The translations under genes and the position numbers were made by a program. 64,000 nt of DNA, from the IMG/VR virus record IMGVR_UViG_3300029537_000168, one strand, 5' to 3'. Below, in pieces: positions 2,013 through 61,355 of the stretch. The notes beneath the pieces were generated by a model. That model was not told the origin of the DNA. It ran no database searches and was given only the letters and a program-made list of their open reading frames with translations. This DNA comes from a virus (taxonomy: Duplodnaviria > Heunggongvirae > Uroviricota > Caudoviricetes). Each line of letters begins with the position of its first letter. Position 1 is the stretch's first letter.

Positions 2013-3428
2013 TCAAAAAGCGGAGGCCGGCACCACACTATAGGTGTTGAACGTGTTGTTGCCGATCAAGTTGCCAACGCCCATGTTCACATACCAGGCG
2101 CTGTTGCCACCGTTGCGGACACAGCTCCAGACGTTTCCGCCCAGGACGCCAGGTATGCCCCATTTTTCATAACTGTTAAGATAGTTTATCAATCCTGAAA
2201 TTATGCTTTTATTAGTCCAGTATGGGTATAATTCTTTTTCTCCTGCCATGTATTTCCCAAGGGACTTAATGTAATACACCGCGTGAGAATCTGCCATATT
2301 CCAGTCGTAATTTGTACCAGAATTTCCCGGTCTGCTTATGTATGGGGTAATGATATACCAATACCCGTCTACAGTTATGGCTTCCGCTCCTTTTGCGCCC
2401 GGAGAAAGAAGAGGTCGTTCGGCGGAGTTTACTCCGGTGTCGTTCATGTTTACACCGTTTGTTTTCTGCTGTTCGTACAGCCATTCAGCGTATTCAGGTT
2501 TGAAATAGTATGCGTTGTTTACTGAATACTTATTATTTGTATTGTACATTGCTTTCAAACCTGTGTTCTGGCCGTTTACGAAGAAAAACATATCTTCGCC
2601 TGCCTGAGCCTGTACGCCTGATGAATTTAGGATTTCCACATTGGTTATTGTGCCTTCTGCTTCAGAAGATGCTATGCCGCTACAGATGGCAAACCTGTGG
2701 CGAAGCCATTCATTCTGTACATACATGGCTTCAAGACGTCCGGCGTAATTATCCGCTATCATAGCATTTACATTGCCGCAATTCTTTTCCATTATCCAGC
2801 GTTGCTTGGTATTACCGCTGTAAAGTTCAAGCTTATCGTCTTCAGTTACGGTTACGCTCCAGTCGGCTGCAAAGTGACTTCCTGCGGCGTGAGTACCAAG
2901 GTTTTCATCCACAGTTCCATGATAATCTGTACCCTCGCGCGCTCCAGTCATCTGGTCGTATTCAAACACGGAGTGTTGCATCGAGTTTGACGATTTGCTT
3001 GTACTGCCGGACGTGGCGTAATATTCTCCCTTCCACGGCCAATAAAGAATGGCTCTGATACCGTTACATTCCAAAGAAAAACCTACAGGAGGAGCAATGA
3101 GTTCATTGTCAAAGCCATTTGCCACACTTCGGTCGTTCCATTCTTTTACTGTGTAATGTTTCAGGTCTGCATCTACAATCTTGATATGGTCGTTTGTAGC
3201 TACGGCTGCCGTCTTGCCTTCTTTTGTTGTGATGGCTGTGGAGCGTACCGGCAGTATCAGCATTTGCGATTCAAGGGCGTATTCGTCCCCTGTCGGAATG
3301 GCTGCTATTTTAGCCGGGTATTCGGAAAGGATTTCTCCTACATTTTCTACACCCTTTGCCTCTATGGCGGCCTTTATTGCGGCTTTGCTTTCTTTCAGTT
3401 TGTTAAGTTTATCTGCTGTCGTTCCCAT
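2013..3428 (-). CDS. DGR target protein: phage tail-fibre / receptor-binding protein with a C-terminal variable (C-type-lectin-fold-like) region
   Basis: 471 aa. The C-terminus VLGGNVWSCVRNGGNSAWYVNMGVGNLIGNNTFNTYSVVPASAF is the VR translation. It lies in the late gene cluster. Confidence 0.8.
   Translation of the reverse strand: MGTTADKLNKLKESKAAIKAAIEAKGVENVGEILSEYPAKIAAIPTGDEYALESQMLILPVRSTAITTKEGKTAAVATNDHIKIVDADLKHYTVKEWNDRSVANGFDNELIAPPVGFSLECNGIRAILYWPWKGEYYATSGSTSKSSNSMQHSVFEYDQMTGAREGTDYHGTVDENLGTHAAGSHFAADWSVTVTEDDKLELYSGNTKQRWIMEKNCGNVNAMIADNYAGRLEAMYVQNEWLRHRFAICSGIASSEAEGTITNVEILNSSGVQAQAGEDMFFFVNGQNTGLKAMYNTNNKYSVNNAYYFKPEYAEWLYEQQKTNGVNMNDTGVNSAERPLLSPGAKGAEAITVDGYWYIITPYISRPGNSGTNYDWNMADSHAVYYIKSLGKYMAGEKELYPYWTNKSIISGLINYLNSYEKWGIPGVLGGNVWSCVRNGGNSAWYVNMGVGNLIGNNTFNTYSVVPASAF
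2021..2147 (-). repeat. DGR variable repeat (VR) at the 3' end of the target gene
   Basis: Counterpart of the TR. Substitutions occur only where the TR has A on the coding strand, giving N>G, S, V, I, G, F changes. Confidence 0.85.
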
Positions 3429-10893: not shown

Positions 10894-11176
10894 AAAACTC
10901 TCATCGAAGAAGGGAATCCCTGTTTTCCCTATCACGCCGCTAAATTACAAAAAATATTTATTTCCGAATAAAACGGATATGTTTTTTTGATAATTGAATG
11001 CTTATTTGCACTTTAAAACAATAAAAAGGGGAATATACCTCTCTTGGAAATATCCCCCTTTATGCATCTAATAATTCATTAAGAATTATAGCTGCAAATA
11101 TAGCTTTTTATTATGATTGACATTTTGTTTATGCTTAATTTTTAATATATTTATAGTGCATCTAATAATAATCATT

Positions 11177-12322
11177 ATGAATAAAATTAAGTATGAGCTT
11201 GTAACACATCGTGTACACGGAGGAATGCTAGCTATTTTTGTGAAATGTTCACAGTATGGTTCTGTAATAGAACTAGATACTAATGTCAGAGTGTTTAATG
11301 ACGAATGGAGTGAAGAATCCGGACTTATTTCTAAAAGTCCAAATGCCGCTAATCTTAACCTGCTAATCAGAAAACTTGTGTATAACCTGGAAGAGATTGA
11401 ACTAACTTATTCTGGAGAAATTACATTGTCTAAATTGCATGACATATATTCAAAACGTGGAGCTTCTGCAGACTGGTATGCAATGTGGGAAAAATCCATG
11501 AATGAAAGAGGGTTAAAACCTCAGACTATAGAAATACATGCAAATGTTTTGAAGACTATAAAAAAATTCAAAGGTTCTTGTCCTGTCATATCATTGACAG
11601 AGGATTTCTTCCGCGGATTCATGGGATTTTTAATTAATTCCGGACTTAAATATTCAACCGTATGCAAGGAAATGCATGTTGTTAAGACATATTATAATAT
11701 CGCACGTAAATTGTATGGGAATAAGGTTCCATCGGATGCATTCGCTTTTTACCATGATCCAAAAGACCTGAACAATACTTATAAACTGAAGTCGTTAAGT
11801 GATGATGACATACGTAAGATTGAGAATTATGTAGCATCTGGGACGTTATCAGAAAGTAAAAAGCTAACTATCAATCAATTCTTATTCATGAGCTATTCTG
11901 GAACTAGGATAAGTGATTTTGCTTCTCTCAACGAAAAGAGCTTCAAGTTGGAAAATGATCGGATTTGGCTTGAATATAATTCCGTAAAAACAAATACACA
12001 TGTCAGAATACCTCTTTTTGCTCTGTTTGATGGAAGAGGTGAGCAAATATATAGCCAGTATCAGAATCGGCTTTCAGAGTTTTTTTATGTGGGGAGCAAT
12101 TGCAGATTCAATTCAAGGTTATCTTCCGCTCTTAAAGGAAGTGGACTTAACAAGCATGTAACCGCTCACGTTGCAAGACATACTTGCGCAAGCAGATTGA
12201 TTAATAGAAATGTTCCTATAACTACAATACAGCAAGTAATCGGTCATAGACAAATAAAGACTACGATGATATATGCAAAGATTGACGACAATTCGTTTGT
12301 AAGACAATTAAAAGGATTGTAA
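11177..12322 (+). CDS. int: Tyrosine recombinase / phage integrase
   Basis: C-terminal catalytic region HVARHTCASRLI...IQQVIGHRQIKTTMIYAKI carries the R..H..R..Y signature. It is a lone plus-strand gene among minus-strand late genes. The real start is MNKIKYEL at 11177. Confidence 0.85.
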   Translation: MNKIKYELVTHRVHGGMLAIFVKCSQYGSVIELDTNVRVFNDEWSEESGLISKSPNAANLNLLIRKLVYNLEEIELTYSGEITLSKLHDIYSKRGASADWYAMWEKSMNERGLKPQTIEIHANVLKTIKKFKGSCPVISLTEDFFRGFMGFLINSGLKYSTVCKEMHVVKTYYNIARKLYGNKVPSDAFAFYHDPKDLNNTYKLKSLSDDDIRKIENYVASGTLSESKKLTINQFLFMSYSGTRISDFASLNEKSFKLENDRIWLEYNSVKTNTHVRIPLFALFDGRGEQIYSQYQNRLSEFFYVGSNCRFNSRLSSALKGSGLNKHVTAHVARHTCASRLINRNVPITTIQQVIGHRQIKTTMIYAKIDDNSFVRQLKGL

Positions 12323-16915: not shown

Positions 16916-17338
16916 TTATTCGCTTCTGTCCATGGGATTCGGTTCGCAAAACTTACTTGAAACCTTACCGAAACACCTGTCAATACTTAACCCGTAAGAG
17001 ATGCTTTTCCCCAGGTAAACCAGCTTGAAGACTTCGCTCCCAAGAGCGGGGATTTTGATGTTTACGGCTCCCTTCTCCAGTTCTGACTGAAAGGCTTTCT
17101 TCTTTGTCCGATAGTCACCTTCTGAGTCTCCTTCTATGGTGAACTGGAGAGTGATTTCACGCGATGCTACTTTTGCATTGTCGGTTATTATTCGCTTCCC
17201 GTGCTCCAGACGGCTCTCATCTTCGATGTAGTCTTTCATCTGGTTGAATCCGTCGATAGCATCGAGAAAACTGTCACCCATGCGGACACCCCATGTGCTC
17301 CAGGCATCCTTCCCGTTAATAAATAAATCTCCTGTCAT
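16916..17338 (-). CDS. Distal tail protein (Dit-like)
   Basis: 140-aa ORF whose start overlaps the TMP stop. Call is positional. Confidence 0.45.
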   Translation of the reverse strand: MTGDLFINGKDAWSTWGVRMGDSFLDAIDGFNQMKDYIEDESRLEHGKRIITDNAKVASREITLQFTIEGDSEGDYRTKKKAFQSELEKGAVNIKIPALGSEVFKLVYLGKSISYGLSIDRCFGKVSSKFCEPNPMDRSE

Positions 17339-20300
17339 AGTCTTGCTGTATTACGTTTCACTTCGGCAATGTCGGCCTGCATCTGTTTGATAGGTTTGAC
17401 AATTTCGCCTGTGTTCTCTCTGATTTGCTGTAACTCCAAATAGGAATTGGCCAGGATAGTACGTGTCTCGTCGGCAATGTTGTACAGACCGGTCACTTGT
17501 GATGTCAGGGAGCCGATGGAACCTCGCAGTTCGGTAATAGCTACCGTTTGCTGCTGTTCTGCCGTCTCAATACGAAGATTGGACTCATACACGGCTGTAA
17601 ACCGCCCACTCAGTTCCCCGGCATCCTCGTGCGTCATTTCTGTACCGAATCCGCGGCTGGAGGCCGACTGCTTGGAACTGCTGCCAGCCTTGTCGTATCC
17701 GGTAGCTGCGGCAAGTTCATCCCGTAGTTTCAATGCTTCATTCACGTACCCCATATATTCGTTTTGGAGTGAATTACGTTCACTCTCACTCAGGTTTCCG
17801 TCCTTCATACTTTCACCGAATCTGTTCCACCAGTCTTCCAGCTTCTGGCTGTACATGTTACCGATTTTATCTGAAAGCATGGCACGCATAAAGTATTCTG
17901 ATAGGTTATCCGCAAAATCTTCCGCCGATGCATCCATATCCATAAGGGTATCGATGAAACTATCATACATGGAATCAAAACTTATTCCGGTAAGCTGTTC
18001 GAAAAGTCCCTCTTTCAGTCCTTCGAGGTTTCCGGCCAGATCTGCATATTCATCTAGTGCATCAACGACAGCATTTCCATAGCCTCCTTTTCCTGAATCG
18101 GCCATTTTCTGCCACAAGTCTACATTCTGACGTAATAAGTCCATCTGCTCCGGCGACATCTGCCACAAGGAATCTGTACCTGTGAATTCTGCCATGACAT
18201 TTTCTCGAATCCATTGTATGTCACTTTCCGACCAGCCCATGTAATAGGCCCAGCTATGATGCTTACTGTGATAGCCAGCATTTGCCTGCGCTTTTGCAAG
18301 GACATTCTTGTTGTATTCCTCCTGATACTTGATGGCTTTATTGTACTCTGCTACGGATTTCTCGCTTCCCTTGCTGGACTTCATTTCTTCCGTAAGGGAT
18401 TCGATGGCAGACTGCAACTTTTCGTTTCTGTCCGTGAGTCTGTTGATGGTATCCTGCACCTCTTTTTCGTTTCCTCCAATACCGAAAAGTTTGCTGAATC
18501 CGCCGAAAGTCAAAGTATCCCATATTCCACCTACAGACTTAAAGACACTACTGAATATGTTACCTACGAAACCATCCAGCCCCTGTGTCCCGATAGCATC
18601 TAAAAGAGAAAATGCAGCTCCAATTATACCTCCAAGTTTCTCGCTCTCTTCTGCAAATATGTCTACTATATTTCCGGCCAAATCACCGACCTGAGAGAGT
18701 GAAATTTCAGAATTTGAACCAAGCTGGGTAATGACGTTCGACAATGTGACAAGGTTGCTTGTCGTTTTATCTGTCGACTTTTGTACATTGACCTGAGCGT
18801 TCTGCTGTCTTTTTTGGGCATCATTCAGTTTCTTCGTGGCCGCTTCCTTCTGCTCATCTGTTCCGCTTCTCATGGCTTCGTTGTATTCCTCCTGAGCTTG
18901 TGACAGTTCTTCCTGTGCCTTGGCTAATTCGCTTAACTGTTTGGGTAGGTCGGCCAGCAATCCTCCTTTGTCGATAAGGGTTGACTGGATGTTGCTTAAA
19001 GCCTCGTCAATGACCTTCTTCTGGTCAACAGCCATATTCTTGTATTCTTCGGAGTTCTTGAAGTCCCTAAGCTGCTGCTTTACCTTGTTCAGGGACTTTT
19101 TGGATACCTTGTCCAAGTCACCGAAGATAAGTTCCCAGTTGATTCCCTGTTTCAGCTTCTCAAGATCAAGGGAGGAGAGTGCCTTATCCATTTCTTTCTG
19201 GAGTATGTCCTTGTCTCCCTGGGTAGTGGCTTCCGAGATTTTACGGGTGTACTCGGCTATGATTGCATCACGTTTCTGCATGAACGTACCGTAGCTTTTC
19301 AGGTAACGTTCGTTGGCCTCGATTGCAGCTTGATTTTCAGTTTCTGTAATTTCGGCCAGACCTTTTTCACGCGACGTCATGGCATTAGACGCACGACTTC
19401 CTAATACTTCCCGCTGTTCAGACGTAAGCTTTCCTCCTTGCGCATCTTCCCATTTTTTGCGCTGTTTCCTAATTTCATCGATTTCTCGCTGGTAATCCAG
19501 CTCAATCTGTCTGCGCTTCTTTTCAGAACCTTCTTCCATCAGGTTGATTTCTTCCTGCTGATTTGTTCTGCGAAGCTGAAGGAGTTCTTCTGCAACCTGT
19601 TGCTGCTCTTTCTTTTGTCGCTCGGCATCTTTCTTCGCATTATTCTCTTGTTTGGCCAGAGTGTCTCCTGTTACACCACCGAGCGATTTATATGATTTTT
19701 CTGCTGCTTCCAACTCTTCTACAGCTTTCTTATAAGCAGATTCAGTGCCTTTTTTAGCATCCTCTACGGCCTTTAATTTTGCTTCGTAAACAGCTTTTGC
19801 TTCTTTATATGCTTGCTGATACGTCTTTTCCGATGCTTCTCTTTGCGATTCCAGGCCAGATATGGTGCCGTCAATCCCTTTTAACGCTGCTTGCGCATTA
19901 TTGAACCGTATTTGAACGTCAATAGGAATTGTTGCAAAAGGAAAATTCTTAATTTTTTCTTGCTCTTCCTGCAATATTTGTCTTGCTATATTGTATTCGC
20001 GTATAATCTGCTCACGATTACTTCTTGCTTCCATCAGCTTGACTTCAACAGGTTTCGAGTTTTCCTCTGTTTCCTTTTTCAGTCGATTATATTCGCTCAA
20101 GGCTGATTTCCACTTGTTAAGATTTGCTTTTGCTGATTCTATTTGTGAAGCGATTAATGGGGCACCTTGTCCCGCATTTTTTAAAGAAGCATTTAATGAT
20201 TTTATTTTCTCCTCCCATTGTTGAATATTCTTTAGTATGTTTTCATAACTGTTCTTGTCTCGTTCCTTATTCAGTTCTTTATTTGCTTCTGCAAGATTGA

Positions 20301-21987
20301 GTACAGCCAGTTGTTCACGGGTATAAGCAGAAGAAAGTGCAGGAGAATACCTTTGTAGTTCCTCATAGGCCTTTATCTTTGAAAACTCGGTTTCTGTCTC
20401 ATCTTGGATAACGCGTATCAGCTCTTCTATTTTTTTCTTGCGTTCCTCTTCCTGATTCGCAAAATTCTTTTGTTCTTCATTGAATTTTTGCTGTGCCTTT
20501 TCCGATGCGGTTGTGCTGTCATGAAAGGCCCACATTGTAGCAACAAGCCCGGCAAGAACCGTAGCTGCCAGTACATACGGGTTAGCTTTCATAACCGTAT
20601 TCAAAGCCTTTTGTGCTATCATTTGAGCTTTGGTAACCAAGATTGCAAGTTCCATTCTGGCCGTTAATGTATCCTGAGCTATTCGCACTACAATAAGAGC
20701 GGTTTTATATGTCCCGTATGTAGCAATCAGTCCTATCAAAATCTTACCAACAGTTTCATAGTTCTCAATAAGACCTTTCAATCCTGAAATACCTGCAGAA
20801 GCAATTCCCTGAGTATCTTTTCCAATCTCATTCAACATTGTATCCCAAGCATCTCCAAGGTTACTCAACTGACCTGTAAGAGACTTAGACTGTTCTTGCA
20901 TCAGGTTATAATAGATTCCTGATTCACTAGTCATATTTTTGAAGGCCTGTTCTACTTCTTTAAATCCTACCTTGCCTTCCTTTACTAAACCGGAAACTTC
21001 ATCTTTTGTCACACCAAGCACTTTTGCCAGTTCCTCGTAGATGGGAATACCACGTCCTGCAAACTGACGAATATCGACAGCATAGGCTCTCCCTTGTGTC
21101 CTTAATGTGCCATAGAGATAGGCTATTTCACTAAGCTGGGAGCCAACACCGGCGGCTACATTACCAAGCATGACAAGTTCATCACCCACATTCTCAGCTG
21201 ACGAGCCGTAAGCAATCATTTGCTTGGCAGATGATGCCACCCCTTGAAGGTCGAAGGGTGTCTTTGCGGCAATATCCACCAGCTCTGACATCAGTTTATC
21301 TGCTTTTTCCTTACTTTTCAGCATGGTTGAAAAAGCAATTTCAAGCTGCTGGAATTGTCCTCGTACATTAACAAGTTCTGTAACAAAGTTTTTCAAGGCA
21401 GTTACTCCACCTATTATACCAAGTACTTTGGTTAAGGAAACGGACATCTTTTCATTTGCTTCGACCGTTTCGCCGGCTTCTTCCTTAAAAGCTGCATATT
21501 CATCCTTCAGTCTCTTTACTGAAAGACGGGCTTCTGCCTGCTGTTGAGTAAGTCCAAACAAAATATCTTTCTGCTCCCTTAACTTATCGGTTTGAGCTTT
21601 TATCTGCTCCGACATACCGCTGGTATTACCACCCGACTTTACAGTTTCTCGGTATTTCTCTTTCAATAAAGTAAGCTCATTTTGTAATTGCCTAATGACA
21701 CCCCTTTGTGAAGTAATATTTGCAGAGAGGTTGTTTACTGTTTGTGAAGCGCTGTAAATTCCATTTTTGAAATCACGCTCCATTGTAGCTCCAACTTTAG
21801 CCGCCTCGGTTACCAGCCCCATCATTTGTTGGCGAGCAGATGCCAATTGGGTTTCCAAAGCCCTTGCCGCTGCCGGAGATTTGTTCACGTCCATCTTTTT
21901 GAGTTGGGCTTCCAGCTTTTCACATTCTTGTCTTAGCTTTACGACCTGTTCCCAGTCACTTGATACACGGAATACGAGTGTTGCCAT
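17335..21987 (-). CDS. Tail tape measure protein
   Basis: 1550 aa, with long coiled-coil regions, Gly-rich hydrophobic segments and a C-terminal catalytic-like region. Size and position are typical of a TMP. Confidence 0.85.
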   Translation of the reverse strand: MATLVFRVSSDWEQVVKLRQECEKLEAQLKKMDVNKSPAAARALETQLASARQQMMGLVTEAAKVGATMERDFKNGIYSASQTVNNLSANITSQRGVIRQLQNELTLLKEKYRETVKSGGNTSGMSEQIKAQTDKLREQKDILFGLTQQQAEARLSVKRLKDEYAAFKEEAGETVEANEKMSVSLTKVLGIIGGVTALKNFVTELVNVRGQFQQLEIAFSTMLKSKEKADKLMSELVDIAAKTPFDLQGVASSAKQMIAYGSSAENVGDELVMLGNVAAGVGSQLSEIAYLYGTLRTQGRAYAVDIRQFAGRGIPIYEELAKVLGVTKDEVSGLVKEGKVGFKEVEQAFKNMTSESGIYYNLMQEQSKSLTGQLSNLGDAWDTMLNEIGKDTQGIASAGISGLKGLIENYETVGKILIGLIATYGTYKTALIVVRIAQDTLTARMELAILVTKAQMIAQKALNTVMKANPYVLAATVLAGLVATMWAFHDSTTASEKAQQKFNEEQKNFANQEEERKKKIEELIRVIQDETETEFSKIKAYEELQRYSPALSSAYTREQLAVLNLAEANKELNKERDKNSYENILKNIQQWEEKIKSLNASLKNAGQGAPLIASQIESAKANLNKWKSALSEYNRLKKETEENSKPVEVKLMEARSNREQIIREYNIARQILQEEQEKIKNFPFATIPIDVQIRFNNAQAALKGIDGTISGLESQREASEKTYQQAYKEAKAVYEAKLKAVEDAKKGTESAYKKAVEELEAAEKSYKSLGGVTGDTLAKQENNAKKDAERQKKEQQQVAEELLQLRRTNQQEEINLMEEGSEKKRRQIELDYQREIDEIRKQRKKWEDAQGGKLTSEQREVLGSRASNAMTSREKGLAEITETENQAAIEANERYLKSYGTFMQKRDAIIAEYTRKISEATTQGDKDILQKEMDKALSSLDLEKLKQGINWELIFGDLDKVSKKSLNKVKQQLRDFKNSEEYKNMAVDQKKVIDEALSNIQSTLIDKGGLLADLPKQLSELAKAQEELSQAQEEYNEAMRSGTDEQKEAATKKLNDAQKRQQNAQVNVQKSTDKTTSNLVTLSNVITQLGSNSEISLSQVGDLAGNIVDIFAEESEKLGGIIGAAFSLLDAIGTQGLDGFVGNIFSSVFKSVGGIWDTLTFGGFSKLFGIGGNEKEVQDTINRLTDRNEKLQSAIESLTEEMKSSKGSEKSVAEYNKAIKYQEEYNKNVLAKAQANAGYHSKHHSWAYYMGWSESDIQWIRENVMAEFTGTDSLWQMSPEQMDLLRQNVDLWQKMADSGKGGYGNAVVDALDEYADLAGNLEGLKEGLFEQLTGISFDSMYDSFIDTLMDMDASAEDFADNLSEYFMRAMLSDKIGNMYSQKLEDWWNRFGESMKDGNLSESERNSLQNEYMGYVNEALKLRDELAAATGYDKAGSSSKQSASSRGFGTEMTHEDAGELSGRFTAVYESNLRIETAEQQQTVAITELRGSIGSLTSQVTGLYNIADETRTILANSYLELQQIRENTGEIVKPIKQMQADIAEVKRNTARL

Positions 21988-22138
21988 AAATAAAAATCTA
22001 AATATTAATGCTTAAAATTATGATATAAGCAAATAGTATTCAGACTTTTTGAAATCAAAAACGAAACAACTTGGCAATTGTCGTGTAATTTAACTTCTAT
22101 TTTTGAATAATTAGACTCCATCTCGGAATAGAACAAAA

Positions 22139-22170
22139 AAGGCGCACCATTATGATGCGCCCGATTGTCA
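22139..22170 (-). terminator. Intrinsic terminator downstream of hicB (pair 1)
   Basis: ggcgca-ccattatga-tgcgcc hairpin followed on the minus strand by a T-run. Confidence 0.4.
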
Positions 22171-22211
22171 ATTTGTTCTTTAATTTATATCAGAGCCTCA
22201 CGGCTGGAATA

Positions 22212-22616
22212 TCAAAACTTGACATTTGCCATTCTTTTAAGTATCTCATTGTATTTTGATTGTATGATAGCTCTTTGCTTTTCTGATGCTGTAATTATCT
22301 TTCCTTTATACTTTCGCATTACAGATTCATTTATACCTATTTCCTTTGCAAACTTACTTGCATTAATAAAAGGGAACGCTTCAAAAAATCCACTTAAGTC
22401 ATACACATACTCCACAGAATAGCCAGCTTTATACCAACTTGGAAATTCACCATGTTTTTCTTTGTAATATTCTGCCTGTTCCTCTAAAACAGAAACAAAG
22501 TCCTCTTTCGCTTCTTGTTCTGTAAGCCCAAAGCCATACGCACCGTTTACATCTTCAGAATAGATAGAAATTCCTCCATCATCTGCTTTTTCAATAATAG
22601 CCTGAATCTTCTTCAT
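22212..22616 (-). CDS. hicB: HicB-family antitoxin (pair 1)
   Basis: 134 aa, with an RNase-H-like N-terminal part and a C-terminal HTH-like region. It lies directly downstream of a HicA-like ORF. Confidence 0.65.
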   Translation of the reverse strand: MKKIQAIIEKADDGGISIYSEDVNGAYGFGLTEQEAKEDFVSVLEEQAEYYKEKHGEFPSWYKAGYSVEYVYDLSGFFEAFPFINASKFAKEIGINESVMRKYKGKIITASEKQRAIIQSKYNEILKRMANVKF

Positions 22617-22674
22617 AATCGTGTATTTTAAGTTTTGTCAATTAAATGCACCCACCGAAGTGGGTGCTGTTCTT

Positions 22675-22860
22675 TTACTTCTTTAACCCCGCCTTTTTCA
22701 TCATGCTGTCAAGAGTACCTTTAGGTATCTCTTTGGCTGGATGTCTGCCTACAGGGATAAAGTAGTCAAAGTCGGGATGAACATACTTGTGATGTTTCTT
22801 TCCCTTTTCGATTGTCCAGCCTGCTGACTCAATCAATTTGTAAAACTCTGAAAACTTCAT
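22675..22860 (-). CDS. hicA: HicA-family mRNA-interferase toxin (pair 1)
   Basis: 61 aa, MKFSEFYKLIESAGWTIEKGKKHHKYVHPD...PVGRHPAKEIPKGTLDSMMKKAGL, matching the YcfA/HicA signature (GW..........H....P). Confidence 0.8.
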   Translation of the reverse strand: MKFSEFYKLIESAGWTIEKGKKHHKYVHPDFDYFIPVGRHPAKEIPKGTLDSMMKKAGLKK

Positions 22861-22978
22861 AAATCAAAGAACTTTTAATTGACAATGCAAAGGTAACATT
22901 TTCGTTACTATTAAGCAAGCTTTGTAACGTAAAAAAGTAACGTTTCTGTTGCTTTTTAACATTCTAATAGAGCCATAT

Positions 22979-23245
22979 CTATTTCTTGTTTCTTCTTCTG
23001 CGTGAAGCCATATCCTTGCCTTTCACCTTCGTGACTTTTGTCCCGGTTACAGTATGAAGCTTGTCACGCTGCATTAATACTAAATTCCTGTATGGTATCT
23101 CATAGACCACTTCCCGGTATGACAGATGCAGATTTTCCATGAACGATGCAATCTGTCCCAAGAGAGTATCATTTCCTACAACCTCGGTTTCGCTGCCAGC
23201 AGACTTACGTTCCTCGCCAAGCTGACAGCTTTGAGAAAAACCTTT
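22979..23245 (-). other. Putative -1 programmed-frameshift extension of the tail chaperone (gpGT-like)
   Basis: The 0-frame reads aag gtt ttt ctc, with the T5 run at 23236..23242 (minus). The -1 frame has no stop from there to the end of the 60-aa ORF at 22979..23161. Confidence 0.4.
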
Positions 23246-23559
23246 GAGTCAATCATAGAGAGTGTTTCATCCAATGCGTCCACATTCTCTTCGTATGTTC
23301 CTTTTGCCAGTTCTTCGCTCAAGTTTTCGTCACCAGCTATCAGCCAGGAAAGAGCCCTGCTGTAGGCCTCACTTTCTCCCAGGGAGAGAAGAACTTCTTT
23401 CAAATTGTCTGCTTCTTGTACACCTGACAAATGGGAGATTGCTCCGGCCAGTTTGTTGATAGTAGGAGGGTAGACCGTGTAGGCTTTCCCAGCGACAAAC
23501 ACCGTTCTGAAATCACTTCCGATAATGGATTCAGTTACTATTTTTGCTCCTTGATTCAT
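23176..23559 (-). CDS. Tail assembly chaperone (gpG-like)
   Basis: 127-aa ORF between the major tail protein and the TMP. A -1 frame stays open for about 85 codons past its stop (see next feature). Confidence 0.5.
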   Translation of the reverse strand: MNQGAKIVTESIIGSDFRTVFVAGKAYTVYPPTINKLAGAISHLSGVQEADNLKEVLLSLGESEAYSRALSWLIAGDENLSEELAKGTYEENVDALDETLSMIDSKVFLKAVSLARNVSLLAAKPRL

Positions 23560-23642
23560 TCTGATAAAAGATAAAAATTAAGGGGTGAAGCCATAAAGCC
23601 CACCCCTGTTATGGAATTCAATCTCTACCTATTGGATAGGCA

Positions 23643-24194
23643 TTAAGCACCTGCTGTTACTTCAGATGAGTCAAACCAGTATTCCGGTGCAACTTCTGCA
23701 TTTTGTGGTTCCAGTTCCACCGCACTTACAGGAATACCGACAGCCTTGTCTGTTGTGGCTTCACGTGCACCGATGTCAGCACGGGGAATCACACAATACT
23801 GGTCATCGTCAGTCAAAGCGACAAGTAACTTCTCAATGTTTACCTTGCCTCTTGCTCGTTTCCAACCCTTATCAGTGTTAATTACATCACCACCCATGAG
23901 GTCTTTCTTGGTCGGATAGTCGTACTCACCAATGGTGAAGTTCACGGTTACATCGCCCATTTCCTTATCACTACGATAAGTCTGACCGGTAAGCTGGTTC
24001 TTGTAGTTAGTGCGGCTTGCTTCCGCTTCTTCAAGTGTCCATGTATCCTGATGGATATTCTTCACCTCTTTTAAGGTTTCACCTTGTAAAAGAGTATATA
24101 AAGCCTGCCCAGTCAAATCTGCTGTGATAGCATTTGTCTCGCCATACCAAAGTTTCTTGATATTCACAGCTGTGATTTTCTTTGATTCTGCCAT
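23643..24194 (-). CDS. Major tail protein
   Basis: 183-aa ORF immediately upstream of the chaperone/TMP genes. Confidence 0.55.
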   Translation of the reverse strand: MAESKKITAVNIKKLWYGETNAITADLTGQALYTLLQGETLKEVKNIHQDTWTLEEAEASRTNYKNQLTGQTYRSDKEMGDVTVNFTIGEYDYPTKKDLMGGDVINTDKGWKRARGKVNIEKLLVALTDDDQYCVIPRADIGAREATTDKAVGIPVSAVELEPQNAEVAPEYWFDSSEVTAGA

Positions 24195-24195
24195 A

Positions 24196-24588
24196 TTATT
24201 TCACATTTAAAACTTCAAACAAAATTCTTACATTCACATAGTGACACTTTAAGGATGTGTCTTCCTCAATTCCGATTGACTCGATGGAATAATGATAGGT
24301 TGTTCCGTCATAGCGTCCGGTCACTCCGTCAAACAATTCTTGCGCCTGTTTCTCCAGCTCGTTCAGACGTATTGTGTTAGCTTCACCTTCTTTCAAGTCA
24401 GGAACGCAAAGGTTCACTTCTACGAAAGACTTCTTCCAGTACGTCTCCGGTTGCTGCTTCTTAGAGTGAATGACAATCCTTTCGGACTTCATCGGCCCCG
24501 TCAGCTTCTTACCGTGTGGAACGATGTCAATTTCAAAAGGCTGGCAATCACGATAGAGTATGTTCGCTATGTCGGTGGTAACTATCAT
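24196..24588 (-). CDS. Tail completion / neck protein
   Basis: 130-aa ORF in the head-tail joining cluster. Confidence 0.4.
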   Translation of the reverse strand: MIVTTDIANILYRDCQPFEIDIVPHGKKLTGPMKSERIVIHSKKQQPETYWKKSFVEVNLCVPDLKEGEANTIRLNELEKQAQELFDGVTGRYDGTTYHYSIESIGIEEDTSLKCHYVNVRILFEVLNVK

Positions 24589-24881
24589 TTTATTTCCTCC
24601 TTTAATCGTTTCTCAGCATATATGGCTGCACCAGTCAAGACTTCGTAACCTTTGGATTCAACGAAAGAAGCGTATTCAGCTTCATTCCTCAACTCCAGTC
24701 CATCATCCTGAACTGAGTATTTGTTTGACTTACGGAGTGTTCCGGTATGATTCTGATAGCTTCCATTCTTTACAGCGTAATCGACAGCCTCTTTACCAAC
24801 CTTCTCCTTAACGGCTTTCACCTCGGCATAACCTTGTTTAAAAAAGCTATCCATGTCCGAAAAATCAAACTTTACAGCCAT
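24585..24881 (-). CDS. Head-tail adaptor-like small protein
   Basis: 98-aa ORF with overlapping start/stop. Confidence 0.35.
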   Translation of the reverse strand: MAVKFDFSDMDSFFKQGYAEVKAVKEKVGKEAVDYAVKNGSYQNHTGTLRKSNKYSVQDDGLELRNEAEYASFVESKGYEVLTGAAIYAEKRLKEEIK

Positions 24882-25195
24882 ATTTCTGAGTAACCAAAAT
24901 AGTTAGTATTTTTTACCGTATAAACCTTGCCAGTTCCCCTGGTATTATCGCCATCCATACATCTGACTTCATCGCCAGCCTTCAGGGAGGTTTTCTTTTC
25001 ACAGACTATGTGATAGTTCGGTCGGTACACCTCGCCGTTCTCCGAAGTAAACTCCTTGGTGGAGTTATCATCACACCGGCACTTACATACGTCCTGCCAG
25101 CTTTCTCCACCGGTTCCGGGAATAGGCCGGCCGAACTCGTCTGTTTCCATTGGAGTAGTAACCTTGATTTGTAATATATGTGGCGCGAATATCAT
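24872..25195 (-). CDS. Head-tail joining protein
   Basis: 107-aa ORF. Confidence 0.35.
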   Translation of the reverse strand: MIFAPHILQIKVTTPMETDEFGRPIPGTGGESWQDVCKCRCDDNSTKEFTSENGEVYRPNYHIVCEKKTSLKAGDEVRCMDGDNTRGTGKVYTVKNTNYFGYSEIWL

Positions 25196-28595: not shown

Positions 28596-29027
28596 TCATA
28601 ACAAATTTATAGCTGCCAGTTCCTCTGTCAGCGCGTTAATACCTTTCTGAATCTTCTCCAACTGCTGTTTACGGGGTTTGTGTACTCCAGCCGCATAATG
28701 CCATAACTGGCGCTCATTGATTCCGGTGATCCGGCTCAAAGCGGCCTTTGTGAAAATACTGCTGTAATAGTTGATGAAGGTGGCAGCATCTATCTTGAAC
28801 TTCAATGTGAACTCTCCCTGCAAAATTTCCACTGGAGCGATGTTCATCTCCTTGCATGACTCCAGGTAAAGTTCAACAGCTTCCTTCATGTTCTTCTCGA
28901 TTTCCTTCACGTCGTTACCGACAGTAATCACCGGAGCACCTTCAATATAGGCACTAAGATTATTTCCAGCATGTTCTACAATCACTTCTACGGTTTTCAT
29001 ACTGACCTCCTTTTTATCGTTAAACAA
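28596..29027 (-). CDS. hicB: HicB-family antitoxin with a C-terminal HTH (pair 2)
   Basis: 143 aa. The C-terminus LSRITGINERQLWHYAAGVHKPRKQQLEKIQKGI is an XRE-like HTH. It lies 12 nt downstream of a HicA-like ORF. Confidence 0.65.
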   Translation of the reverse strand: MFNDKKEVSMKTVEVIVEHAGNNLSAYIEGAPVITVGNDVKEIEKNMKEAVELYLESCKEMNIAPVEILQGEFTLKFKIDAATFINYYSSIFTKAALSRITGINERQLWHYAAGVHKPRKQQLEKIQKGINALTEELAAINLL

Positions 29028-29039
29028 AAGAGGCGGGGG

Positions 29040-29228
29040 CTATTTTAGCCCCGCTTGCCTCAGAATGTTGTAATAAGTGCCTTTCTCAACGCCTTTCTTG
29101 CCGTGGTCGGGTACAATCACTACATGGCTACCATCAGTGTAAACCATGTGACTGCCTTTCTGCCTCACGAACCAAAAGCCATTTTCAGTAAGCAGCGTTA
29201 CAACGTCTTTAACTGATTTGTAGCTCAT
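29040..29228 (-). CDS. hicA: HicA-family toxin (pair 2)
   Basis: 62 aa, MSYKSVKDVVTLLTENGFWFVRQKGSHMVY...VPDHGKKGVEKGTYYNILRQAGL, matching the HicA signature. Confidence 0.8.
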   Translation of the reverse strand: MSYKSVKDVVTLLTENGFWFVRQKGSHMVYTDGSHVVIVPDHGKKGVEKGTYYNILRQAGLK

Positions 29229-29416
29229 AGCGTTTAAGACTTAATTACGATGCAAATATAGTAAAATAACGAATAATTACAAAGAAGTATTCATGTTTTT
29301 ACTATGATAAAGGAAATAGCGATACCTCGAAAGATACCGCTACTCAAATAGTCAATATTTTAGATTTATATCATTCTGTTTTGTATTATCCCCGTAAATA
29401 TTCTGACTGGGTTGTT

Positions 29417-30928
29417 CTATTCTTCAGATTTACTGCTGGAACTTTTAAGAGAGGAAAGCTGTTTCTGCTTCTCGATGTCGTTCTTCTGTTTCTCAGATTG
29501 CTCTTCCTTGATGGCTTCAATCTCATCCAGAACTGCATCCACGTTCCCCACAAAGGTAATGGCCCGCTGTTGAGACCAGATTTCACCGTCCTTGGCCTTG
29601 ATAGCTGTGTCTATCTTGTCTTTGATGTCCTCCAGCTTATACGGCTGCATCTGCACATCCACATCGATGGTTTCGGAGGCTTCTTCAAGGGTGGAATTCA
29701 CGGAACCCAACGCGGAGACAAGGAAATTTACACGTCGTTGCATGAACTCGCCGACGATCTCGTTCAGATTTTCTACGTTAAGGTGGGTGGACATAAACAC
29801 ATAATCGAAAGTCACACCGGAAACGGCGTTTCCTGTACCTTTCAGGGAGTCAAAAGAGATTCTGGGTGTATTGGTCAGTCCATATATCTGGCTCAGCAAG
29901 GTTTCTACCTCGAACTTGACAGTATCAGGTACCTGTGACCAGGTAAGATACTGGGCATTTGCTCCCTGGCCGGTCAACTCGACAACACGGTTCTTGAACT
30001 CACCTGAGAAATTCTCCACGTTACCAAAAAGCATGAGGATAGGGAAGAAGTGGTAGTCGATACAGTCTGCATAGTTTGAGAGAAGCTTCTCCAGTCTTAC
30101 ACGGAGGCTCTTTATCTTTTCACAGTACGCTTCCGGACGGTACATATAAATCACCGGCATCTTCTTGAATCCATGTGCAAATGAGCCTTTGTCAGTCCAG
30201 TTGCTTGTCAGTTCCCACTGATAAACCATGTCCTTGGTAATGGTCATGAAGCAGGTAATCTCCACGTCATTCAGATCTTTCTTCTTGTATTCACGGGACA
30301 GGGCCACCAAATCCCCCTGGTCATTGAAGAAAGGGTAGAGCTTGTCGCCACGGAACGGAGACCAGATGGCACTCTTCAGACGGTATTCAGGTTTTGATTT
30401 GCCGAAGATTCCTGAAATCTTTCGTTTGAGCTTTGCCCAGAAGCCGTCATCCTTCACCACATACCAGTATTCGGCCACTTCCTGCTCGGCCAGCCATGCC
30501 CGGACTACTTTCTTGTTCTGGTATTTCAACTTGTTTTTCTTGAACACCTGCTTCAATGTGGAAAGAAGGCTTTCTTCCGACTGGTCCGGCTGGCAATCAA
30601 GGACCGGTTCTGTTCCCACGGTGAAGGCAGTCTGAATGTTCACGATGTCCTGCTCGATAGGAAGAGCAATCCTGTTCGGGTCAACTTCTTTCCTTGCCGC
30701 CGGCTCAACATATTCTTTCCCGGTTGTAGGGTCTGTAATCCGTTTCTCAGGCTGGGTCGTAATTTTGATTTTCGGGTATTTCTCTTCATCTATCACTATC
30801 TCGTGCTTGTTCGGATTCCAGTCGTTGTAAAGAGCGTGAGCGTTTGGTTGCTCGGTCTTTCGTCCTTTCTTCAGATAGTAGATTTTTCTCTCTACTTCCG
30901 GCATAGCTAAAATTTCTTCTATAGTCAT
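29417..30928 (-). CDS. Portal protein
   Basis: 503 aa immediately downstream of the large terminase gene. Confidence 0.65.
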   Translation of the reverse strand: MTIEEILAMPEVERKIYYLKKGRKTEQPNAHALYNDWNPNKHEIVIDEEKYPKIKITTQPEKRITDPTTGKEYVEPAARKEVDPNRIALPIEQDIVNIQTAFTVGTEPVLDCQPDQSEESLLSTLKQVFKKNKLKYQNKKVVRAWLAEQEVAEYWYVVKDDGFWAKLKRKISGIFGKSKPEYRLKSAIWSPFRGDKLYPFFNDQGDLVALSREYKKKDLNDVEITCFMTITKDMVYQWELTSNWTDKGSFAHGFKKMPVIYMYRPEAYCEKIKSLRVRLEKLLSNYADCIDYHFFPILMLFGNVENFSGEFKNRVVELTGQGANAQYLTWSQVPDTVKFEVETLLSQIYGLTNTPRISFDSLKGTGNAVSGVTFDYVFMSTHLNVENLNEIVGEFMQRRVNFLVSALGSVNSTLEEASETIDVDVQMQPYKLEDIKDKIDTAIKAKDGEIWSQQRAITFVGNVDAVLDEIEAIKEEQSEKQKNDIEKQKQLSSLKSSSSKSEE

Positions 30929-60518: not shown

Positions 60519-60600
60519 GGGTGTATATATTAAACCTCCTCGGAGGAATGTTTAACCAACTTGTTCCTTTAACACCTCGTACTTGTTACGGTACAAAGAT

Positions 60601-60626
60601 ACTTTATAATTCTAAAGTATCAAATA
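60601..60626. promoter_or_regulatory. Second operator copy (actttataattctaaagtatcaaata)
   Basis: Identical 26-mer to 59561..59586, located 15 nt upstream of the repressor start codon. Confidence 0.6.
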
Positions 60627-60640
60627 CAAGCTTTAAAATT

Positions 60641-61354: not shown

Positions 61355-61355
61355 T

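What the first reader, a model, noticed from the sequence alone, without database searches (positions are those of the whole stretch)
22212..22860. HicA/HicB toxin-antitoxin pair 1 inserted between the tail chaperone genes and the tape measure gene
A 61-aa HicA-signature ORF is followed by a 134-aa HicB-like ORF with its own downstream terminator hairpin (22139..22170). This interrupts what is normally a tightly packed MTP-chaperone-TMP block. A TA module inside a morphogenesis operon is a moron and may act in prophage stabilisation or anti-phage abortive infection. A second hairpin (gcacccac-cgaa-gtgggtgc, 22644..22663) sits between the toxin and antitoxin genes.
Basis: partly seen in the sequence, partly recalled or inferred. 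Interest (0 to 1): 0.6.

Follow-up and report, generated by a model that had tools for sequence, protein, structure and literature searches.

The report
HicAB toxin-antitoxin moron in prophage tail operon
A self-contained HicA/HicB toxin-antitoxin cassette, with its own promoter, operators, internal attenuator hairpin and terminator, sits as an optional add-on between the tail-chaperone and tape-measure genes of a Bacteroides-type prophage; this is a clear but ordinary example of a known kind of phage add-on gene.

Summary
On the minus strand, hicA (22675-22860, Pfam HicA_toxin 54.5 bits) is followed by a 134-aa protein (22212-22616). That protein misses every HicB sequence model, but its predicted structure finds HicB structures as its best matches.

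Among 80 closely related phage contigs, the junction between the chaperone-like genes and the tape measure gene is empty in 19 (2-5 nt), holds hicAB in 37, and holds other cargo of at least 4.2 kb in 21. The same cassette (83% DNA identity) sits at an unrelated position in Bacteroides phage BS-TP2. So it is a mobile moron. HK97 gene 15, the archetypal moron, occupies the same position.

The cassette carries a Bacteroides-type promoter overlapped by two conserved GTAAC-N6-GTTAC palindromes, and a canonical terminator.

The hicA-hicB hairpin is conserved across Bacteroidales homologues with compensatory changes (7 of 8 pairs). It matches the internal "noncanonical terminator" layout described in 2025 for plasmid HicA^T^B, without detectable protein similarity.

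Verdict: a new member of a known kind. Interest is modest (0.33). The biological role, addiction/competition or phage defence, is inferred and untested.

The parts
22675..22860 (-). hicA, 61-aa HicA-family toxin (putative mRNA interferase)
   Evidence: Pfam PF07927 at 54.5 bits (cut-off 27), E 1.3e-14. phrog_353 'toxin', E 3e-17. Sequence matches to solved HicA chains 4c26, 6g26, 4p78 and 6hpb_A; His23 aligns with His23 of E. coli HicA.
22212..22616 (-). hicB-like antitoxin, 134 aa: N-terminal HicB fold plus a C-terminal three-helix (HTH-like) domain
   Evidence: No Pfam, NCBIfam or PDB sequence hit at threshold. AF2 model with pLDDT 83. The top 17 Foldseek PDB hits are HicB or HicB-fold proteins, including E. 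coli HicB 6hpb_B and 6u0i. Some sources name homologues 'HicB family'.
22648..22667 (-). Intergenic RNA hairpin GCACCCAC-UUCG-GUGGGUGC; candidate internal attenuator between toxin and antitoxin genes
   Evidence: dG -16.4 kcal/mol, z -5.2. Invariant in close cassette variants. Structurally conserved with covariation in homologues with 45-93% HicB identity. Same layout as the HicA^T^B internal terminator (PMC11878559).
22637..22647 (-). AUUUAAUUGAC motif directly 3' of the hairpin: a short U tract plus the conserved UUAAUUG(A/G)AC
   Evidence: Conserved next to the hairpin in most homologous loci.
22888..22895 (-). -7 box TACCTTTG (Bacteroides TAnnTTTG consensus), 28 nt upstream of the hicA ATG
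   Evidence: Pattern search. The TTTG and flanking columns are invariant in 8 diverged cassettes.
22914..22917 (-). -33-like element: CTTG in the window, TTTG in six of the other seven cassette variants; about 20 nt upstream of the -7 box
   Evidence: Alignment A7; coordinates.
22893..22908 (-). Operator-like palindrome O2, GTAACGAAAATGTTAC, between the -33 and -7 elements and overlapping the -7 box
   Evidence: The GTAAC and GTTAC half-sites are invariant in 8 cassette variants, including BS-TP2. Coordinates.
22937..22952 (-). Operator-like palindrome O1, GCAACAGAAACGTTAC (GTAAC-N6-GTTAC in six of the other seven variants; BS-TP2 has GTTAT in the 3' half-site)
22964..22978 (-). Left edge of the insert: ATATGGCTCTATTAG, a remnant of the tape measure start (ATATGGCTACA...) just after the stop of the upstream ORF
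   Evidence: Alignments of empty and occupied junctions. The direct repeat ATATGGCTACA is intact in type-2 loci.
22131..22162 (-). Canonical intrinsic terminator after hicB: 10-bp stem (6 GC pairs) followed by UUUUUUGUUC
   Evidence: dG -21.4 kcal/mol, z -5.4. Lies inside the 787-nt stretch shared with phage BS-TP2.
21988..22130 (-). Spacer between the cassette terminator and the tape measure ATG. Its last ~45 nt resemble the right end of the same slot in loci with other cargo
   Evidence: No TAnnTTTG on the minus strand here.
17335..21987 (-). Tape measure protein gene (1550 aa), downstream neighbour
   Evidence: Pfam TMP_3 at 87 bits. Its first ~416 nt travel with the type-1 cassette.
22979..23161 (-). 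60-aa ORF in the -1 frame relative to the upstream 127-aa gene; likely the frameshift extension of a tail assembly chaperone (upstream neighbour)
   Evidence: phrog_14740. The -1 frame is open from 23248 and overlaps the upstream gene by 73 nt; GGTTTTTC lies at its start. The chaperone role is inferred from position.
23176..23559 (-). 127-aa chaperone-like gene between the tail-tube-position gene and the tape measure gene
   Evidence: phrog_13669, unknown function. Role inferred from position and frame arrangement.

Best explanation
This is a type II HicA/HicB toxin-antitoxin cassette carried as a moron in the tail operon of a temperate Bacteroides/Phocaeicola siphovirus. The window holds an integrated prophage, with an integrase at 11117-12322 and an S24 repressor at 60521-61354.

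Shown:
- The roughly 990-nt insert occupies a junction that is only 2-5 nt long in related phages.
- The 787-nt core, from operators to terminator, is a portable unit also found elsewhere in another phage. The protein family is also found on Bacteroidales chromosomes.
- The core consists of a Bacteroides-type promoter overlapped by two GTAAC-N6-GTTAC palindromes, then hicA, a covarying GC-rich UUCG hairpin with a short U tract, hicB, and a canonical terminator.

Inferred mechanism:
- In the lysogen the cassette is transcribed from its own promoter.
- HicB, through its C-terminal HTH-like domain, binds the palindromes and autorepresses the promoter.
- The N-terminal domain of HicB sequesters HicA, a ribosome-independent mRNA-cleaving toxin.
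- The internal hairpin acts as a leaky terminator or translation barrier that keeps the toxin:antitoxin ratio high, as shown experimentally for plasmid HicA^T^B.
- The most likely benefit is addiction and competition. Cells or lineages that lose or replace the cassette-bearing prophage are poisoned, which favours carriers over cassette-less relatives. A role in aborting infection by other phages is the main alternative.
- Phage late transcription must read through both cassette hairpins to express the tape measure gene.
For: Identity:
- HicA HMM and PDB sequence matches.
- HicB fold.

Moron status:
- Junction states among 80 relatives are 19 empty, 37 hicAB and 21 other cargo.
- 83% DNA identity over window 22134-22920 only, to BS-TP2, where the pair lies next to Bro-N and regulator genes and outside the tail module.
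- Other contexts occur in viral and genomic loci.
- G+C is 33-38% in the cassette against 40-47% in the flanks.

Transcription signals:
- The -7 box and palindromes are invariant in 8 diverged cassettes.
- Terminator.

Internal hairpin:
- MFE z below -2 in 33 of 45 homologous spacers.
- The covariance model hits only the hicA-hicB spacer, in 38 loci out of 649 kb searched.
- 98.9% of cells are paired and 7 of 8 pairs show double changes; covariation score is 0.508 against 0.215 in shuffles (0 of 500 reach it); 15 G.U cells point to RNA on the sense strand.

Literature:
- An internal GC hairpin plus UUU in hicAB raises the toxin:antitoxin ratio and drives plasmid competition (PMC11878559).
- A HicAB of a B. 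thetaiotaomicron prophage is constitutively expressed in lysogeny, and its HicA is toxic in E. coli (bioRxiv 10.64898/2026.06.25.734096).
- HK97 moron gene 15 lies at the same position (PMC3594210).
Against: - No HicB sequence model reaches threshold. Foldseek E-values are modest (8e-3 to 0.3), and whole-chain TM scores are low because the domain orientation differs.
- In the window the -33 element is CTTG, not TTTG.
- Nothing here shows expression, toxicity, neutralisation, operator binding or termination at the hairpin.
- The hairpin alignment used for pair counts was fitted to the model, and palindromes bound by proteins can also covary. The G.U pairs and the UUCG loops argue for RNA.
- An integrated prophage is seldom lost, so the value of addiction is uncertain.
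- A strong terminator just upstream of the essential tape measure gene, with no recognisable promoter in the spacer, means that read-through has to be assumed.
Confidence: 0.85

Rival explanations
1. The anatomy is the same, but the selected function is anti-phage defence. Infection by another phage shuts off host transcription or depletes HicB, freeing HicA to cleave mRNA and abort the infection. This protects the lysogen population.
For: The slot holds alternative accessory cargo in relatives (Cro/C1 HTH, WYL_2, KilA-N/ANT, DUF6414), like the defence hotspots of other phages. There is a weak PADLOC 'HicA-like' hit at E 3e-5. The literature cited in PMC10367356 and PMC10884400 notes that TA systems act in inter-phage competition.
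Against: No direct evidence here. HicB has no PADLOC hit. The plasmid study found HicB stable in E. coli lysate and considered activation by HicB degradation unlikely. No sensor component is evident.
Confidence: 0.3
2. It is a purely selfish mobile cassette. It persists because loss is lethal to the cell and spreads by recombination between related phages, with no net benefit to phage or host.
For: The cassette appears in unrelated contexts. It travels with about 416 nt of linked tape measure sequence, as expected for homologous exchange between phages. It is polymorphic in the lineage.
Against: It occurs in 37 of 77 informative relatives in two diverged versions. Promoter, operators and hairpin are strictly conserved, so regulated expression is maintained. 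That does not exclude selfishness.
Confidence: 0.2
3. The cassette serves the lytic cycle. Late-operon read-through makes excess hicA mRNA upstream of the internal hairpin, so free HicA degrades host mRNA late in infection.
For: The cassette lies in the same orientation inside the late tail operon, with the toxin gene first and an attenuator before the antitoxin gene.
Against: HicA would also cleave phage late mRNAs. The same cassette sits outside late operons in BS-TP2 and on chromosomes. Many relatives do without it.
Confidence: 0.05
4. The 134-aa protein is not an antitoxin but an unrelated regulator or structural accessory, and the 61-aa HicA-like protein is a degenerate, inactive remnant.
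For: HicB models fail at threshold.
Against: Both ORFs are intact and 84-100% conserved as a pair across contexts. About 65 of 80 genomic loci keep a HicA gene just upstream. The fold matches HicB. The catalytic-position His is present.
Confidence: 0.03

Closest known systems
HK97 gene 15 moron (Juhala et al. 2000; Cumby et al. 2012, as reviewed in PMC3594210)
   Same: [quoted passage not shown] It is absent from related phages, has its own promoter and terminator, and differs in G+C from its flanks.
   Different: HK97 gp15 is a single small inner-membrane superinfection-exclusion protein of a lambdoid coliphage. Here the cargo is a two-gene toxin-antitoxin operon in a Bacteroidales phage.
HicA^T^B of IncI2 mcr-1 plasmids (Lin et al. 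2025, PMC11878559)
   Same: The toxin gene comes first. A G/C-rich hairpin with a short U tract lies in the hicA-hicB spacer just upstream of hicB, and a canonical terminator follows hicB.
   Different: tblastn of the window's HicA and HicB against plasmids returned no listed Escherichia or IncI2 record. The spacer is 58 nt here against 24 bp there. The host phylum, the promoter type and the carrier (prophage rather than plasmid) all differ. Termination has not been measured here.
E. coli K-12 HicAB (solved complex 6hpb)
   Same: HicA of about 60 aa, with His23 aligned. HicB has an N-terminal HicB fold and a C-terminal helical DNA-binding domain. 6hpb_B and 6u0i are the top fold hits.
   Different: Sequence identity is about 20%. 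The E. coli operon uses two sigma-70 promoters, and no internal hairpin has been reported for it.
Bacteroides phage BS-TP2 gp43/gp44 (PQ571275)
   Same: The same cassette: 83% DNA identity from operators to terminator, HicA 87% and HicB 84% identical, with an identical hairpin.
   Different: It lies between a Bro-N gene and regulator genes, about 16 kb from that phage's chaperone homologue, and not in the tail operon.
HicAB of B. thetaiotaomicron prophage Wilby 2 and of Porphyromonas gingivalis phages
   Same: HicAB pairs carried by Bacteroidales temperate phages. The Wilby 2 pair is constitutively expressed in lysogeny and its HicA is toxic in E. coli.
   Different: Their sequence relationship to this pair and their position in those genomes were not available to me.

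Membership tests
HicA toxin (Pfam PF07927) | Match to the family HMM above the curated cut-off | tested here: met
   54.5 bits against a cut-off of 27, E 1.3e-14, covering 57 of 58 model positions.
HicA toxin (Pfam PF07927) | Similarity to solved HicA proteins, with the catalytic-position histidine present | tested here: met
   4c26 at E 2.8e-5 and 6g26 at E 3.9e-5. In the 6hpb_A alignment, G20-K-K-H23 lines up with G20-S-N-H23 of E. coli HicA. That His23 is the catalytic residue is from my own knowledge.
HicA toxin (Pfam PF07927) | Ribosome-independent RNA cleavage and growth arrest | not testable with these tools
   Needs expression and cleavage assays.
HicB antitoxin | Match to a HicB-family sequence model (PF15919 and relatives, NCBIfam) at threshold | tested here: not met
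   No Pfam or NCBIfam hit for the protein. Among 31 homologues only 2 touch PF15919, at E 0.014. The only sequence hit is phrog_497 'HicB-like' at E 4e-4.
HicB antitoxin | N-terminal HicB (partial RNase H-like) fold | tested here: met
   AF2 model with pLDDT 83. The top 17 Foldseek PDB hits are HicB, TTHA0281, TTHA1013 or 3kwr, with probability 0.97-1.0 and rmsd about 2-3 A over 52-73 columns for the best domain-level matches. E-values are modest.
HicB antitoxin | C-terminal DNA-binding domain (HTH or RHH) and cognate operator in the promoter | tested here: inconclusive
   The model shows three C-terminal helices. Full-length alignments to the E. coli HicB chains 6hpb_B (107 columns) and 6u0i_B (128 columns) have high rmsd. 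Two conserved GTAAC-N6-GTTAC palindromes lie in the promoter. Binding was not tested.
HicB antitoxin | Encoded directly downstream of hicA in one operon | tested here: met
   58-nt spacer on the same strand. The pairing is kept in about 65 of 80 genomic loci.
Moron (Juhala/Hendrix sense) | Present in one phage genome and absent at the same junction in close relatives | tested here: met
   19 empty, 37 hicAB and 21 other cargo among 80 loci whose chaperone-like protein is 94-100% identical.
Moron (Juhala/Hendrix sense) | Own promoter and own terminator | tested here: met
   Sequence level only. TACCTTTG -7 box with a -33-like element, conserved across cassettes. Hairpin plus U6 terminator.
Moron (Juhala/Hendrix sense) | Base composition different from neighbouring genes | tested here: met
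   G+C is 0.33-0.38 across 21900-23099 against 0.40-0.47 in the flanks.
Moron (Juhala/Hendrix sense) | Expressed from the repressed prophage | not testable with these tools
   Only an analogy to the Wilby 2 HicAB.
HicA^T^B subfamily (internal-terminator hicAB) | G/C-rich hairpin with a short U tract in the hicA-hicB spacer, and a canonical terminator after hicB | tested here: met
   The hairpin is conserved with covariation in homologues.
HicA^T^B subfamily (internal-terminator hicAB) | Protein sequence relatedness to the IncI2 plasmid pairs | tested here: not met
   tblastn against 72,556 plasmids gave one Bacteroides hit for HicB. For HicA, none of the ten organism genera shown is Escherichia, and two genera are not displayed. 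I therefore treat the two as 'works alike', not as members of one subfamily.
HicA^T^B subfamily (internal-terminator hicAB) | Measured excess of hicA over hicB mRNA caused by the hairpin | not testable with these tools
   Needs RNA-seq or Term-seq and a hairpin deletion.

The most novel reading that the evidence does not exclude
The chaperone/tape-measure junction of this Bacteroidales siphovirus lineage is a dedicated cargo slot. Every cargo starts just after the first few bases of the tape measure gene, whose start is duplicated, and cargos are swapped by recombination. The hicAB occupant uses a phylum-wide, covarying internal attenuator hairpin to keep toxin in excess. On this reading, cassette-bearing prophages out-compete or exclude cassette-less and differently loaded relatives in the gut, the prophage counterpart of the plasmid-plasmid competition shown for HicA^T^B.
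Probability: 0.25. Interest if true: 0.5.

Novelty: new member of a known kind. Interest (0 to 1): 0.33.

Why it matters
The locus is a clean natural example, in an abundant group of human-gut phages, of how accessory cassettes enter and leave a structural operon. One junction exists in empty, hicAB and other-cargo states, with defined boundaries.

The more useful by-product is comparative evidence for the hicA-hicB internal hairpin, a regulatory device shown experimentally only in 2025 for enterobacterial plasmids. Here it shows compensatory changes in 7 of 8 base pairs. A structurally equivalent element is maintained across Bacteroidales hicAB operons on chromosomes and phages.

This gives a concrete target (hairpin deletion in a Bacteroides lysogen) for testing whether a high toxin:antitoxin ratio drives competition between prophages. 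None of this changes the current view of toxin-antitoxin systems or morons.

Tried and rejected
- NCBIfam scan of both proteins: no hits.
- PDB sequence searches with HicB alone and with a 31-sequence profile: nothing meaningful. I therefore turned to structure prediction.
- Rfam at permissive E-values over 21900-23200: only sub-threshold noise, for example BTnc005 at 21 bits against a gathering score of 174.8 and rsmX at 14.6 bits on the hairpin.
- The sigma-70 promoter scan found 0 sites. It is not informative for Bacteroides, so I used the TAnnTTTG consensus instead.
- I looked for a promoter that could restart transcription of the tape measure gene in the 21988-22139 spacer. There is no TAnnTTTG on the minus strand there, so read-through is assumed.
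- A MAFFT alignment of 19 hairpin regions (A4) misplaced the stems. I replaced it with a covariance model built from an ungapped 8-sequence seed.
- I considered that the palindrome could be a protein-binding DNA site rather than an RNA hairpin. The G.U pairs on the sense strand and the UUCG-type loops argue against that.
- I considered membership of the plasmid HicA^T^B subfamily and rejected it at the sequence level.
- A first script to classify junctions failed on a regular expression and was redone.
Full report
**What is there**

The genes of this region lie on the minus strand. In order of transcription they are:
- a 183-aa gene at 23643-24194;
- a 127-aa gene at 23176-23559;
- a 60-aa ORF at 22979-23161;
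- a 61-aa ORF at 22675-22860;
- a 134-aa ORF at 22212-22616;
- a hairpin followed by a T run at 22131-22162;
- a 1550-aa gene at 17335-21987.

The 1550-aa protein is a tape measure protein (Pfam TMP_3, 87 bits). The 183-, 127- and 60-aa proteins match only PHROG families of unknown function. The 60-aa ORF is in the -1 frame of the 127-aa gene. That frame is open from 23248, overlaps the gene by 73 nt, and begins at a GGTTTTTC run.

The window is an integrated temperate phage. It carries a tyrosine integrase (11117-12322), an S24-peptidase repressor (60521-61354), a large terminase, an SPP1-type portal and a KilAC/Bro-N antirepressor.

**Checking the toxin and antitoxin calls**

The 61-aa protein is a HicA:
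- Pfam PF07927 at 54.5 bits against a cut-off of 27.
- phrog_353 'toxin'.
- Sequence matches to solved HicA chains; His23 aligns with His23 of E. coli HicA.

The 134-aa protein is harder to place. It has no Pfam, NCBIfam or PDB sequence match at threshold, alone or as a profile. Of 31 homologues scanned, only two graze PF15919, at E 0.014.

A database search found 310 homologues. None has a precomputed Pfam domain, and a few are named HicB family by their sources. An AlphaFold model built from an alignment of 31 of them has mean pLDDT 83. Its 17 best Foldseek matches in the PDB are all HicB or HicB-fold proteins, with probabilities of 0.97-1.0. They include E. coli HicB 6hpb_B and 6u0i, Burkholderia HicB 6g1c and 6g26, Yersinia HicB3 4p78, TTHA0281 and TTHA1013.

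So the partner is a HicB by fold and gene order, but not by any curated sequence model.

**The two hairpins**

- The terminator stem is 22140-22162, followed by UUUUUUGUUCU. Its dG is -21.4 kcal/mol and its z-score is -5.4.
On the mRNA strand it reads GCACCCAC-UUCG-GUGGGUGC, followed by AUUUAAUUGAC. Its dG is -16.4 kcal/mol and its z-score is -5.2.

**Is it an insert?**

Megablast of window 21000-25000 against phage genomes found a single hit. Window 22134-22920, which is exactly operators to terminator, is 83% identical to Bacteroides phage BS-TP2. The flanks do not match. In BS-TP2 the pair lies between a Bro-N gene and regulator genes, far from that phage's tail genes.

I fetched 80 IMG/VR contigs whose chaperone-like protein is 94-100% identical to the window's. 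The junction between the 60-aa ORF and the tape measure gene has three states:

| State of the junction | Contigs | Size |
|---|---|---|
| Empty | 19 | 2-5 nt |
| hicAB | 37 | 965-991 nt |
| Other, larger cargo | 21 | at least 4.2 kb where the tape measure gene is reached |
| Contig ends | 3 | - |

The larger cargo includes Cro/C1-type HTH proteins, a WYL_2 protein, a KilA-N/ANT antirepressor and a DUF6414 protein. G+C drops to 0.33-0.38 in the cassette, against 0.40-0.47 in the flanks.

**Boundaries of the insert**

In empty sites the sequence reads ...AAATAG-AT-ATGGCTACACT..., that is, the stop of the 60-aa ORF, two bases, and the tape measure start. Every cargo begins just after ATATG or ATATGGCT(ACA). 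The tape measure start is then repeated at the right end.

The direct repeat ATATGGCTACA is intact in the second cassette version (for example L028). In the window it is decayed: the remnant is at 22964-22978 and the true start is at 21985-21987.

The last ~45 nt before the tape measure ATG are shared between type-2 hicAB loci and large-cargo loci. The junction therefore behaves as a slot with common ends.

The window-type cassette is always linked to a distinct first ~416 nt of the tape measure gene. Beyond that point, identity to empty-site phages returns to about 97%. This is as expected if cassettes move between related phages by homologous recombination in the flanking genes.

**Regulatory anatomy**

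I aligned the region upstream of hicA from eight diverged cassettes, including BS-TP2 and two Bacteroides genomes. The alignment shows two GTAAC-N6-GTTAC palindromes with almost invariant half-sites and an invariant TTTG. In the window:
- O1 is at 22937-22952.
- O2 is at 22893-22908.
- The -7 box TACCTTTG is at 22888-22895, 28 nt before the hicA ATG. It matches the Bacteroides TAnnTTTG consensus, which I cite from my own knowledge of Bayley et al. 2000.
- A -33-like element lies about 20 nt upstream of the -7 box. It is CTTG in the window and TTTG in six of the other seven.
- O2 lies between the two promoter elements and overlaps the -7 box.

This is the layout expected for autorepression by a dimeric HTH antitoxin. 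Binding itself is inferred.

**The internal hairpin**

In close cassette variants the 20-nt hairpin is invariant, while the flanking spacer and the proteins vary.

A scan of one genome per species found 80 loci across Bacteroidales, including Bacteroides, Phocaeicola, Parabacteroides, Prevotella, Tannerella and Muribaculaceae. A few lie in MAGs labelled outside the order (Clostridiales, Oribacterium, Gastranaerophilales, Holosporales). About 65 of these loci keep hicA just upstream.

Where HicB is at least 45% identical, the spacer almost always holds a 7-13-bp GC-rich hairpin. It usually has a UUCG-like tetraloop and is followed by UUUAAU(U)G(G/A)AC. The stem sequences are quite different between loci.
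- Spacer folding energies have a median z of -2.8, and 33 of 45 are below -2. For homologues below 45% identity the median is -0.46.
- A covariance model built from eight spacers hit 38 loci, always at the hicA-hicB spacer. It hit nowhere else in 649 kb.
- On the resulting alignment 98.9% of cells pair, and 7 of 8 pairs show changes on both sides.
- The covariation score is 0.508 against 0.215 in shuffles (0 of 500 reach it). Sliding the partners drops pairing to 48-72%.
- That alignment is fitted to the model, which favours the structure. Even so, the 15 G.U cells and the loop type point to an RNA element on the sense strand rather than a protein-binding palindrome.

Rfam has nothing for this element.

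**What the hairpin probably does**

Lin et al. (2025; PMC11878559) described a HicA^T^B subfamily on IncI2 plasmids. [quoted passage not shown] It gives about 10-fold more hicA than hicB mRNA and lowers HicB translation. It is required for plasmid-plasmid competition, and a canonical terminator follows hicB.

The layout here is the same. The proteins are not detectably related to those plasmid pairs. I therefore say it works like HicA^T^B, not that it belongs to that subfamily.

**Function**

The anatomy is shown; the mechanism is inferred.
- The cassette would be transcribed from its own promoter in the lysogen and autorepressed by HicB.
- HicA would be held in check by HicB.
- The toxin:antitoxin ratio would be set high by the internal hairpin.

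A preprint on B. thetaiotaomicron prophages reports a HicAB pair that is constitutively expressed during lysogeny and whose HicA is toxic in E. coli. HicAB pairs are also reported as common in Porphyromonas gingivalis phages.

I rank addiction and competition between related prophages first, anti-phage abortive infection second, and a merely selfish cassette third.

One open point concerns the tape measure gene. A strong terminator now sits 144 nt upstream of this essential gene, and no TAnnTTTG promoter box lies in the spacer. Late transcription must therefore read through, as it does for classical morons.

**Comparison with what is known**

[quoted passage not shown] That is the same position. 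Toxin-antitoxin pairs are listed among moron cargos in the same review.

The finding is therefore a new member of a known kind. Two modest additions are the three-state cargo slot with defined ends, and the comparative evidence for a conserved internal hairpin in Bacteroidales hicAB operons.

**Scores**

- Interest is 0.33.
- Confidence that this is a HicAB moron with the anatomy described is 0.85.
- Confidence in any particular biological role is below 0.5.

Noticed in passing
window 28596-29260 (- strand): A second hicAB pair sits between the portal gene (29417-30928) and a 97-aa ORF plus the scaffold-position gene. hicA2 is at 29040-29228 (PF07927, 57 bits) and a 134-143-aa partner is at 28596-29027. 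A TATATTTG -7-like box lies at 29253-29260. HicA2 is only 31% identical to HicA1, and the two partners show no sequence similarity. The hicA2-hicB2 spacer is short (about 12-39 nt) and was not examined for a hairpin. The pair is present in about 73 of 80 portal-related contigs, so it is far more fixed than pair 1, while the adjacent 97-aa ORF varies.
   Followed up: partly
L014 5582-9780; L041 5582-10378 (relatives of the window): Alternative cargo occupies the same chaperone/tape-measure junction. One version is a 4.2-4.6 kb island with a Cro/C1 HTH protein, a WYL_2 protein, a KilA-N/ANT antirepressor and a 300-aa Cys-rich protein. A second version has a DUF6414 protein, a membrane-like 166-aa ORF that reuses the tape measure start codon (MATL...), and another Cro/C1 HTH.
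   Followed up: partly
window 106-1578 (- strand): A 490-aa reverse transcriptase (Pfam RVT_1, 56 bits) lies outside or at the edge of the prophage, next to an unassigned 471-aa ORF (2013-3428). Its type (retron, DGR, group II intron or Abi) was not determined.
   Followed up: no
window 23162-23260 (- strand): The 60-aa ORF is in the -1 frame of the 127-aa gene, with a 73-nt overlap that opens at 23248 next to GGTTTTTC. This is a candidate programmed -1 frameshift of a tail assembly chaperone, although it is not a canonical XXXYYYZ heptamer.
   Followed up: partly
window 21570-21987 versus L002: The first ~416 nt of the tape measure gene are a distinct allele (about 60% amino-acid identity to empty-site relatives) that always accompanies the window-type cassette. 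Downstream of that point, identity returns to about 97%. This looks like a recombination tract.
   Followed up: partly
window 60521-62603 (+ strand): An S24-peptidase (LexA/CI-like) repressor is followed by a protein that combines DUF4236 with an FtsK gamma domain, an unusual pairing at the prophage end.
   Followed up: no
L184, L187, L188, L190, L196 and other Prevotella loci, about 30 nt upstream of the main hairpin: Many Prevotella hicAB spacers carry a second, upstream hairpin (AGAGCUUC-N-GAAGCUU) directly after the hicA stop codon, in addition to the main GC-rich hairpin.
   Followed up: no
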